From the NCBI RefSeq assembly GCF_024223415.1, contig NZ_CP100500.1: a stretch of DNA of 64,000 nt; one strand, given 5' to 3'. Source of the DNA: Escherichia coli (GTDB lineage Bacteria; Pseudomonadota; Gammaproteobacteria; Enterobacterales; Enterobacteriaceae). The position numbers and the translations under genes were made by a program. The notes under the pieces were generated by a model that worked only from the letters and a program-made list of their open reading frames with translations, made no database searches and was not told the DNA's origin. Positions 60,027-60,740 of this stretch are shown piece after piece (the stretch's first letter is position 1; each line of letters starts with the position of its first letter).

Positions 60027-60740
60027 TTGATGGGGGTGAAAGATAAGGCCGTCAAAATCGCACTGAGGCAGCGAGAATATGTCGTCAGAGTTGCGGGGTT
60101 GCGTAAGCATCCGCCCGGCGATGATGGCTACAAGGTTGGAGATGTTGTGAAATTATCTGAAGGAATAACCAGCTTGCAGGAGAACCCGGGCAAAGTCAGA
60201 ATAGCGGCAGGCATCAACTCAAAAGAGGATAATGTCATGAGCCACTTTAATGATTTATGCCAGATCAATCGTGAAGCTGAAGAAAAACGCGCTGAGGCAG
60301 CTCAAATTTTGCGGGATGAAGCGGCAAGGCTGATTGATTTCTATGAAGAATGGCTGGGGCTTCCATCCATGTACTGGGAAGACGATGATGGCGACCTGCA
60401 CCGCTACGTGGAGACAGGCTTGCCATGTAAGACAGCGGCGGATTTTAGTCCTCTTTCAGTCCACAATATCGCATCTGCACCAGACAATATTTTCCGCATG
60501 GCCGTGCGAACCTGGGTTAAGTCATCTGACAGCAGCTACCCGGTAAGCGTGGTTATTGCACTTGAATTATATTCAGTAGATGCGGAACGGGTGTCTCTGA
60601 GAGTCCGGGTGGAAGACGATATTTCTGTTCGCGTATTTATCAATAAACCCAGCGAAGAAGCCTGGGGCGATGTTGTTATGCACATGAAAAAGCACATCGC
60701 TAATCACCTGAAAAAGCGAGCGCCATCAGCACTTCGTTAA
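60027..60740 (+). CDS. Hypothetical cargo protein between structured non-coding region and portal gene
   Basis: 237 aa from first ATG (no clear RBS); alternative start ~60237 (MSHFNDLCQ...) has RBS AAAGAGGA and gives ~167 aa; followed by hairpin CGGGGCATAAAtttTTTATGCCCCG. Confidence 0.6.
   Translation: MMGVKDKAVKIALRQREYVVRVAGLRKHPPGDDGYKVGDVVKLSEGITSLQENPGKVRIAAGINSKEDNVMSHFNDLCQINREAEEKRAEAAQILRDEAARLIDFYEEWLGLPSMYWEDDDGDLHRYVETGLPCKTAADFSPLSVHNIASAPDNIFRMAVRTWVKSSDSSYPVSVVIALELYSVDAERVSLRVRVEDDISVRVFINKPSEEAWGDVVMHMKKHIANHLKKRAPSALR

What the first reader, a model, noticed from the sequence alone, without database searches (positions are those of the whole stretch)
60027..60740. Solitary cargo ORF abutting the portal gene, with its own upstream regulatory region
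This ORF is separated from the A-linked operon by a terminator and the repeat-bearing non-coding stretch. It converges on Q with only 67 bp between stop codons, a gap that contains a GC hairpin. The arrangement looks like a self-contained cargo gene that could be expressed from the prophage. The start is ambiguous between 60027 and an internal ATG near 60237 with a better RBS. No catalytic motif was recognisable by eye.
Basis: seen in the sequence. Interest (0 to 1): 0.6.

Follow-up and report, generated by a model that had tools for sequence, protein, structure and literature searches.

The report
Single-gene cargo cassette beside phage portal
A 0.58-kb self-contained accessory gene of unknown function sits between the DNA-packaging (cos) site and the portal gene of a P2-family prophage; this is a known place for phage cargo, so the finding is real but of an ordinary kind.

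Summary
The ORF exists as described, but the real gene is the short form: ATG 60237 to stop 60740, 167 aa. The 60027 start is a frame accident.

The gene is a roughly 581-bp insertion (60161 to about 60741) in a P88-like (Xuanwuvirus, P2-family) prophage. It lies between the conserved cos block and the convergent portal gene Q. The cassette has a conserved sigma-70-like promoter (TTGCAG-17-CAGAAT, 60174-60202), a GAGGA ribosome-binding site, lower GC than the phage core, and dN/dS of 0.09-0.20.

Of the 80 closest relatives, 72 have the slot empty. The other 8 hold this allele or an allele sharing detectable similarity over only 46 residues, inserted at a different point. A nearly identical cassette sits beside a diverged portal with unrelated upstream cargo, so it is not tied to the upstream five-gene block.

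The protein belongs to PHROG 5091 (unknown function). It has no Pfam, NCBIfam, PADLOC or PDB match and no informative fold match. The model is a helix-sheet-helix protein without catalytic residues, probably a dimer.

The layout copies phiCTX (cos, promoter, ctx, terminator, portal), and cosL-Q is a published insertion hotspot. My best guess is a prophage-expressed binding protein used in phage-versus-phage conflict. That function is inferred, not shown.

The parts
59754..59776 (+). Terminator-like hairpin (9-bp GC-rich stem, 5-nt loop, then AUUUC) that ends the A-linked early operon. It is not part of the cassette; it marks the left boundary of the neighbourhood.
   Evidence: RNA fold; sequence
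59785..59814 (.). Three GCACAA repeats at 10-bp spacing, just left of the presumed cos cut. They are analogous to the TGCAT repeats left of cosR in P2 and the R4-R6 repeats around phiCTX cos. Likely part of the packaging signal (inferred).
59829..60160 (.). Conserved P88-type cos-proximal block. It is present at roughly 87-97% identity in compared P88-like phages whether the slot is full or empty. The linear P88_4B11 record starts at the base equivalent to 59829 and ends at the base equivalent to 59828.
59959..59976 (.). TGTTGCAGCGACACAACA, a TGT-N12-ACA dyad of the kind bound by Ogr/Delta at P2 late promoters. It lies inside the cos block and is retained in P88 with a symmetric change (TGTCG..CGACA). 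It is not found upstream of family genes in other phage lineages. Function unknown.
60161..60741 (+). Inserted cassette relative to P88 (about 581 bp, replacing about 9 bp). The right junction is ambiguous by about 3 nt.
60174..60202 (+). Sigma-70-like promoter: -35 TTGCAG (60174-60179), 17-nt spacer, -10 CAGAAT (60197-60202), 34 nt before the ATG. The same hexamers and spacing are conserved 30-39 nt before the ATG in family members from about 75% identity down to only weakly alignable alleles, while the spacers differ.
   Evidence: The generic scan did not call it, because the -35 matches only 3 of 6.
60225..60229 (+). Ribosome-binding site GAGGA, 7 nt before the ATG. Conserved in homologues.
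60237..60740 (+). Coding sequence of 167 aa plus TAA, a member of PHROG 5091. Mildly acidic (pI 5.4). The structure model gives a long N-terminal helix, an antiparallel sheet and a C-terminal helix.
60754..60782 (.). Strong resident hairpin (13 bp including one G-U pair, 3-nt loop) between the gene's stop and the Q stop. It is part of the conserved P88-type sequence and also occurs in empty sites. It may act as a two-way transcription barrier, but it lacks a U tract.
60807..61862 (-). Portal gene Q (351 aa), convergent neighbour.

Best explanation
The feature is a moron: a compact, self-contained transcription unit inserted into the otherwise gene-free stretch between the cos packaging region and the end of the portal gene of a P88-like, P2-family prophage. 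It consists of a sigma-70-like promoter, a ribosome-binding site and a 167-codon gene that ends exactly at the insert boundary and uses the resident hairpin behind it.

Shown here: the insertion anatomy, the true start, purifying selection on the gene, its patchy presence, its horizontal exchange independent of the flanking genes, its membership of PHROG 5091, and the absence of any enzymatic or known-defence signature.

Inferred: the promoter is host-type, so the gene is probably transcribed from the repressed prophage. The product is a soluble, mildly acidic, probably dimeric helix-sheet-helix protein that most likely acts by binding another macromolecule rather than by catalysis. Its selective value most likely lies in conflict between mobile elements, meaning exclusion of or defence against other phages. 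That is the role tested and found for part of the cargo between gpA and gpQ.

My rough probabilities are:
- anatomy and accessory status: 0.9
- expression from its own promoter in the lysogen: 0.6
- a role in inter-phage conflict of either sign: 0.5
- host-protective exclusion or defence specifically: 0.3-0.35

The single confidence figure given for this explanation (0.45) is for the whole statement, including the inferred mode of action.
For: - Insertion relative to P88 and P88_4B11, with conserved flanks.
- Of the 80 closest portal relatives, 72 have an empty slot, 4 carry this allele and 4 carry a divergent allele.
- The divergent allele B is inserted at a different point, after the hairpin, with its own promoter-like element and its own terminator.
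- The cassette is 99-100% identical in L023, where portal DNA is only 70-89% identical and the A-to-cos cargo is unrelated.
- The promoter motif lies 30-39 nt upstream of the ATG in 10 diverged loci. Only 12 matches occur in 490 kb.
- dN/dS is 0.09-0.20.
- GC is 48.5% against 55-57% for the neighbouring A, P and Q genes.
- PHROG 5091 match at E = 3e-52.
- No hit in Pfam, PADLOC, NCBIfam or PDB sequences.
- A tandem construct keeps pTM 0.76 over 364 residues.
- The invariant residues are mostly hydrophobic or structural: L40, L42, W47, Y57, G61, F70, K151.
- Distant family members sit in classic moron slots of other prophage types.
- phiCTX has the identical layout: cosL, promoter, ctx, terminators, convergent portal.
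- The cosL-gpQ position is described as a hotspot in PMC5694545.
- gpA-gpQ cargo was shown to be defensive for old-tin and for 3 of 8 other systems tested, and for one natural lysogen (PMC9122126).
Against: - No transcript, phenotype or binding partner is known.
- The -35 hexamer matches the consensus at only 3 of 6 positions, and the generic promoter scan did not call it. The motif was defined after seeing the sequences.
- The hairpin has no U tract, so termination is unproven.
- Some distant homologues sit where they would be transcribed in lytic growth. One follows ogr by 12 bp, one overlaps a tail gene by 8 nt, and one lies between antiterminator Q and holin. That fits a phage-benefit role as well as a host-benefit role.
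- A TGT-N12-ACA late-promoter-like dyad lies 270 nt upstream.
- There is no match to any defence model.
- The dimer inference rests on pTM of a linker-fused model only.
Confidence: 0.45

Rival explanations
1. Counter-defence or other phage-benefit accessory. The protein is made during infection or induction, by read-through from the early operon, from its own promoter on incoming DNA, or from a late promoter at the TGT-N12-ACA dyad. It then binds and neutralises a host or rival-element factor.
For: It is a small, acidic, non-enzymatic, probably dimeric protein. Distant homologues lie directly after ogr, inside a tail operon, and between antiterminator Q and holin, all of which are transcribed in lytic growth. 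An Ogr-box-like dyad lies at 59959-59976. The gene sits about 400 bp from the left end of the virion DNA.
Confidence: 0.2
2. Lysogenic-conversion gene unrelated to phage conflict, affecting host physiology or virulence, as ctx does at the same position in phiCTX.
For: The position and layout match ctx. Many of the E. coli genomes with this exact allele are from chickens or chicken meat.
Against: No similarity to ctx. The protein is modelled as a soluble helix-sheet-helix protein, unlike the membrane-embedded exclusion proteins; signal peptide and transmembrane segments were not specifically tested. The family occurs in prophages of plant, insect-associated and environmental genera, including Pectobacterium, Budvicia, Chromobacterium, Photorhabdus, Pseudomonas and Halomonas. 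The chicken bias may simply reflect clonal sampling, since several of the records are identical in length.
Confidence: 0.12
3. A virion, portal-associated or packaging accessory protein of this phage lineage.
For: It lies next to cos, portal and terminase. One AFDB homologue is labelled 'phage tail protein'. One distant homologue overlaps a Dit-like tail gene.
Against: It is absent from 72 of the 80 closest relatives, and the slot is empty in an estimated 65% of P88-type prophage loci in E. coli genomes. It occurs with portals of 100% and 82% identity. Homologues occur in a lambdoid prophage and in an integrase island. It is convergent with the late QP operon and has its own promoter-like element.
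Confidence: 0.05
4. The annotated long form (236-237 aa from 60027/60030) is the real product, a fusion with a small upstream ORF.
For: The frame is open from 60027. PGAP annotates a 236-aa protein, WP_223942718.1.
Against: PHROG coverage, homologue lengths, the conserved ribosome-binding site and start, upstream in-frame stops in homologues, the promoter-like element inside the extension, no codon-position bias in the extension, and frame closure in P88-type phages.
Confidence: 0.03

Closest known systems
ctx cytotoxin moron of Pseudomonas phage phiCTX (NC_003278)
   Same: Same family of phages (Peduoviridae) and the same slot and layout: cosL, then a promoter, a single rightward cargo gene, a terminator, and the convergent portal gene Q.
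   Different: The protein is unrelated. ctx is a secreted pore-forming toxin, whereas this product is a small soluble protein of unknown function. The phiCTX promoter and terminators are annotated features; here they are only predicted.
gpA-gpQ (old/tin, 'TO-region') hotspot of P2-like phages (Rousset et al. 2022, PMC9122126; Odegrip 2006, cited there)
   Same: The gene lies between gpA and gpQ. This very locus (NZ_CP033635) and allele B (WP_000236495) are listed in Table S5A of that paper as anonymous 'hypothetical' genes.
   Different: old and tin and the diverse systems of that hotspot lie on the A side of cos in P2. This gene lies on the Q side of the cos block. In the P88-type lineage, every occupied Q-side slot I examined held one protein family. 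No anti-phage activity has been tested for it.
cosL-to-Q insertion site noted for P2-like phages (Dodd and Egan 1996 and Nakayama 1999, as cited in PMC5694545)
   Same: [quoted passage not shown]
   Different: The cargo is different. Here it is a single gene with two very divergent alleles, inserted at two different points about 85 bp apart.
PHROG 5091 (unknown function)
   Same: Full-length profile match at E = 3e-52. The 10 distant homologues scanned match the same profile.
   Different: Nothing is known about the family. I found no paper mentioning it or its accessions.
Actin-capping protein subunits and PI31/Fbxo7 FP dimerisation domains (best structural neighbours)
   Same: A helix packed on an antiparallel sheet with a C-terminal helix across it. 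These are dimeric protein-binding modules.

Membership tests
Moron (independent transcription unit inserted between conserved phage genes; Hendrix/Juhala sense, from my own knowledge) | Present in some phages and absent from close relatives, with the flanks otherwise collinear | tested here: met
   Alignment with P88 and P88_4B11. Slot empty in 72 of 80 relatives, with a 76-bp gap.
Moron | Own promoter | tested here: inconclusive
   TTGCAG-17-CAGAAT is conserved in position across diverged alleles. However, the -35 is weak, the generic scan did not call it, and there are no transcript data.
Moron | Own terminator | tested here: inconclusive
   The gene uses the resident hairpin 60754-60782 (-30.7 kcal/mol), which has no U tract. 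Allele B does carry a canonical two-way terminator.
Moron | Base composition different from neighbouring phage genes | tested here: met
   48.5% GC against 55-57% for A, P and Q
Cargo of the P2-family gpA-gpQ hotspot (Rousset 2022) | Located between the replication gene A and the portal gene Q | tested here: met
   A at 55682-58192, gene at 60237-60740, Q at 60807-61862. The locus is listed in Table S5A.
Cargo of the P2-family gpA-gpQ hotspot (Rousset 2022) | Confers resistance to phages | not testable with these tools
   Needs plating assays. The family is not among the systems described as tested.
Known anti-phage defence families (PADLOC-DB 2.0.0) | Profile match to a defence protein model | tested here: not met
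   No hit at E <= 1 for this protein and none at E <= 0.1 for 10 diverse family members
PHROG 5091 | Full-length profile HMM match | tested here: met
   E = 3e-52, profile positions 2-163 of 164
Core virion or packaging component of P88-like phages | Present in essentially all members of the lineage | tested here: not met
   Absent from 72 of 80 relatives. About 35% occupancy, counting both alleles, in complete E. coli genomes.
Ogr/Delta-dependent P2 late gene | TGT-N12-ACA centred about 55 nt upstream of the transcription start, conserved together with the gene | tested here: not met
   The dyad at 59959-59976 is 270 nt from the ATG and belongs to the cos block. It is absent upstream of family genes in other lineages.

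The most novel reading that the evidence does not exclude
PHROG 5091 proteins are a new class of small, dimeric, non-enzymatic factor for competition between phages. They keep landing next to cos and the portal gene because they act on the packaging machinery or packaging signal of rivals that use the same kind of cos, meaning other P2-like phages or P4-like satellites. The two highly divergent alleles would then be alternative specificities maintained by an arms race.
Probability: 0.08. Interest if true: 0.75.

Novelty: new member of a known kind. Interest (0 to 1): 0.35.

Why it matters
Counting both alleles, this family sits in the cos-portal slot of roughly a third of P88-type prophages. 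That corresponds to about 8% of complete E. coli genomes. Yet it has no name, no domain, no structural relative and no paper.

The cassette is 0.6 kb with its own predicted signals, so it is an unusually clean candidate for a plating or competition assay.

The analysis also shows that the published 'gpA-gpQ hotspot' is really two compartments separated by cos. The A side carries highly diverse cargo. In the P88-type phages I examined, the Q side was either empty or held one gene family.

It also corrects an annotation. RefSeq calls a 236-aa protein where the gene is 167 aa.

Tried and rejected
- **Long 237-aa reading frame.** Rejected.
- **Imperfect direct repeat flanking the insert,** as a sign of deletion or insertion by microhomology. 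The local alignment score was no better than 40% of shuffles.
- **Ogr-type late promoter as the family's regulator.** The dyad is a property of the P88-type cos block only.
- **P2 cos 19-mer.** Absent from the window even with 3 mismatches, so this lineage has different cohesive ends.
- **Two long 'homologues',** P0019 and P0021. These are repeat proteins and the matches are spurious.
- **Direct comparisons with ctx and P2 Tin.** No similarity.
- **tblastn of this allele against INPHARED phages.** No match. The family was reached there only through distant members.
- **Literature searches** for the PHROG id, the WP accessions and peptide strings. Nothing found.
- **Several distant members** lie on contigs too short to give context.

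Full report
**1. What is in the sequence**

The end of the window is a P2-family prophage. It reads as follows:
- a gpA-like replication gene (55682-58192, + strand);
- five small ORFs;
- a non-coding stretch;
- the ORF in question (60027-60740, + strand);
- the convergent portal gene Q (60807-61862, - strand);
- the large terminase gene P (61862-63613, - strand).

DNA searches place the phage among P88-like phages (Xuanwuvirus, Peduoviridae).
- The gap between stop codons is 66 nt.
- It contains a strong hairpin at 60754-60782 (-30.7 kcal/mol, z = -5.5). No U tract follows on either strand.
- A terminator-like hairpin (59754-59776) closes the A-linked operon.

**2. The true gene**

The gene is the short form: ATG 60237 to TAA 60740, 167 aa. 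The evidence is:
- PHROG 5091 matches only residues 70-236 of the long ORF, and matches the short form end to end (E = 3e-52).
- Homologues are 158-180 aa and begin MSHF or MGHF behind a conserved GAGGA.
- In-frame stops lie 2 and 16 codons upstream of the start in Edwardsiella and in another E. coli allele.
- The 70-codon extension shows no third-position bias among P88-type phages (20/26/26 variable sites). In those phages a G-run is one base shorter, which closes the frame at ATG GGG TGA.
- RefSeq nonetheless annotates 236 aa in identical prophages (WP_223942718.1).
- Among alleles, dN/dS is 0.09-0.20, so the 167-aa gene is under purifying selection.

**3. It is an insertion on the portal side of cos**

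Alignment with P88 and P88_4B11 shows that window positions 59785-60160 and about 60742 onward are conserved. Positions 60161 to about 60741 are extra, replacing about 9 bp.

The conserved block is the cos region, for four reasons:
- It is the only non-coding block between A and Q that is shared by these phages whatever cargo they carry.
- The linear P88_4B11 record begins at the base equivalent to 59829 and ends at the base equivalent to 59828.
- Three GCACAA repeats at 10-bp spacing lie just to its left. P2 has TGCAT repeats left of cosR, and phiCTX has R4-R6 repeats around cos.
- In P2, cosL lies 186 bp from the Q stop.

The exact cut site is inferred. The P2 19-mer itself is absent from the window.

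**4. Cassette anatomy**

The insert carries TTGCAG (60174-60179), a 17-nt spacer and CAGAAT (60197-60202), 34 nt before the ATG. The same hexamers and spacing sit 30-39 nt before the ATG in ten diverged loci. These range from 62-75% identical alleles from Salmonella, Edwardsiella and E. coli down to roughly 30%-identical or barely alignable alleles. Their spacer sequences are unrelated.

Only 12 matches to the motif occur in 490 kb of family loci. I defined the motif after seeing the sequences. The -35 is weak, and the generic scan did not report it. The promoter is therefore well supported by conservation but unproven.

The coding sequence ends at the very edge of the insert, so the gene relies on the resident hairpin behind it. 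GC is 48.5% against 55-57% for A, P and Q.

**5. Distribution**

Among the 80 closest portal relatives in IMG/VR:
- 72 have the slot empty, with 76 bp from the block to the Q stop;
- 4 carry this allele;
- 4 carry allele B, another member of the same family in which BLASTP aligns only a 46-residue stretch to this allele (41% identity);
- no other gene family was found in any occupied slot.

Allele B is inserted at a different point: after the hairpin and directly against the Q stop. It has its own TTGCCG-17-CAAAAT element and a canonical two-way terminator. A third left junction occurs in an 86%-identical allele.

In complete E. coli genomes:
- the P88-type cos block occurs at 1,246 places in 1,101 genomes;
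- allele B occurs at 401 places in 397 genomes;
- this allele occurs at 39 places in 30 genomes.

That gives about 35% occupancy, and about 8% of genomes carry the family at this site. This is an approximate megablast count.

The cassette moves on its own. In IMG/VR contig 2913167280_000009 (L023) it is 99-100% identical, while portal DNA is only 70-89% identical and the A-to-cos cargo is unrelated.

**6. Wider family context**

Alleles sharing 30-75% identity lie in the same cos-portal position in P2-like prophages of Salmonella, Edwardsiella and others. The A-side cargo differs each time (HigBA, HicAB, ParM/StbB, SSB/Ead).

More distant members sit in other classic cargo positions:
- 12 bp after ogr in a Pectobacterium P2-like prophage;
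- between antiterminator Q and holin in a Klebsiella lambdoid prophage;
- behind a terminator-like hairpin inside the tail operon of a Chromobacterium prophage, overlapping the next gene;
- in an integrase island with a reverse transcriptase in Budvicia.

The family is therefore a travelling prophage accessory. It is not a packaging part.

**7. The protein**

There is no match in Pfam, NCBIfam, PADLOC or PDB sequences, whether for this protein or for diverse family members.

The AlphaFold model is confident (pLDDT 83, pTM 0.77). It shows a 38-residue N-terminal helix, an antiparallel sheet and a C-terminal helix. Structural searches gave the following:
- Among significant matches (E <= 0.001), AFDB50 returns almost only uncharacterised proteins from Enterobacterales, Pseudomonas, Halomonas and Aquitalea; two carry generic labels ('phage tail protein', 'WH2 domain-containing protein').
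- BFVD returns nothing.

The invariant residues are mostly hydrophobic or structural (L40, L42, W47, Y57, G61, F70, K151). No catalytic constellation is visible. A linker-fused tandem keeps pTM 0.76 over 364 residues, with all five models at pLDDT 77-84. That suggests a dimer but does not prove one.

**8. Comparison with what is known**

The layout is the same as in phiCTX: cosL, annotated -35/-10 signals, ctx, terminators, convergent portal. The protein is unrelated to ctx.

The cosL-Q position has been described as a hotspot where P2-like phages pick up foreign genes (PMC5694545, citing Dodd and Egan 1996 and Nakayama 1999).

The wider gpA-gpQ interval is the defence hotspot of Rousset et al. 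2022 (PMC9122126). Their Table S5A lists this very locus (NZ_CP033635) as six 'hypothetical' genes. It also lists allele B (WP_000236495) at least 167 times, lumped with the ParM/StbB cargo. Neither is discussed or tested in that paper.

In that study, old-tin and 3 of 8 other cloned P2 systems protected against phages. A 2026 preprint predicts antiviral roles for 15-32% of the unknown P2 hotspot proteins and finds recognisable anti-defence genes in only 28 of 1511 P2-like prophages. These figures are my basis for ranking a host-protective conflict role first, and only modestly so.

**9. Verdict**

The start, the regulatory region and the supposed link to the upstream block need correcting.

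It is a new, uncharacterised member of a known kind: a single-gene moron in the documented cosL-Q slot of the P2 family.

Two points are modestly new. First, in P88-type phages every occupied slot I examined held this one family, with two very divergent alleles acquired at different insertion points. Second, the family is common in E. coli yet entirely unstudied.

Function remains inferred. The most likely role is a prophage-expressed, non-enzymatic binding protein acting in inter-phage conflict. A lytic-cycle counter-defence role is the main rival.

Noticed in passing
window 59959-59976: TGTTGCAGCGACACAACA is a TGT-N12-ACA dyad like the Ogr/Delta boxes of P2 late promoters. It lies inside the cos block, far from any known late operon. 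P88 keeps it with a symmetric double change (TGTCG..CGACA). The only other match near late genes is at 63679-63696, in the P/O intergenic region, where a late promoter is expected. It could be a fifth late promoter or a packaging-related dyad.
   Followed up: partly
window 59785-59814: Three GCACAA repeats at 10-bp spacing lie immediately left of the presumed cos cut. Similar GCACAA/TGCACA runs occur upstream in other P2-like loci (L028, L029). They are probably terminase or host-factor binding sites.
   Followed up: partly
window 60030-60037 (G-run); RefSeq WP_223942718.1: One extra G relative to P88-type phages opens a 70-codon frame into the gene. As a result, PGAP and AFDB carry 236-aa and 197-aa versions of a 167-aa protein.
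   Followed up: yes
L014 5001-5525 (phage vB_EcoM-705R2); WP_000236495.1: Allele B of the same family is far commoner than the window's allele: 397 of 5426 complete E. coli genomes. In the two loci I inspected (L014, L117), and in the Rousset Table S5A arrangement, it sits with a ParM/StbB partition module and a DUF4760 gene on the A side of cos.
   Followed up: partly
window 58189-59746: The five small ORFs between A and cos all match PHROGs of unknown function. The C-terminal half of the last one (133 aa) matches a PHROG labelled 'DNA ligase' (phrog_13916). The same gene is a truncated pseudogene in strain SCU-115 (L007).
   Followed up: no
window 60807-63613: The portal allele of this prophage is unusual. 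It is only about 82% identical in protein to the common P88 type, and exact matches were found in only three IMG/VR contigs. Terminase DNA is likewise only about 78-83% identical to that of P88-type phages.
   Followed up: no
L113 3878-6087 (Chromobacterium haemolyticum prophage): A distant family member sits in a tail operon after a DUF4431 gene and a terminator-like hairpin, and overlaps the following Dit-like gene by 8 nt. This is an odd mix of moron-like and operon-embedded features.
   Followed up: no
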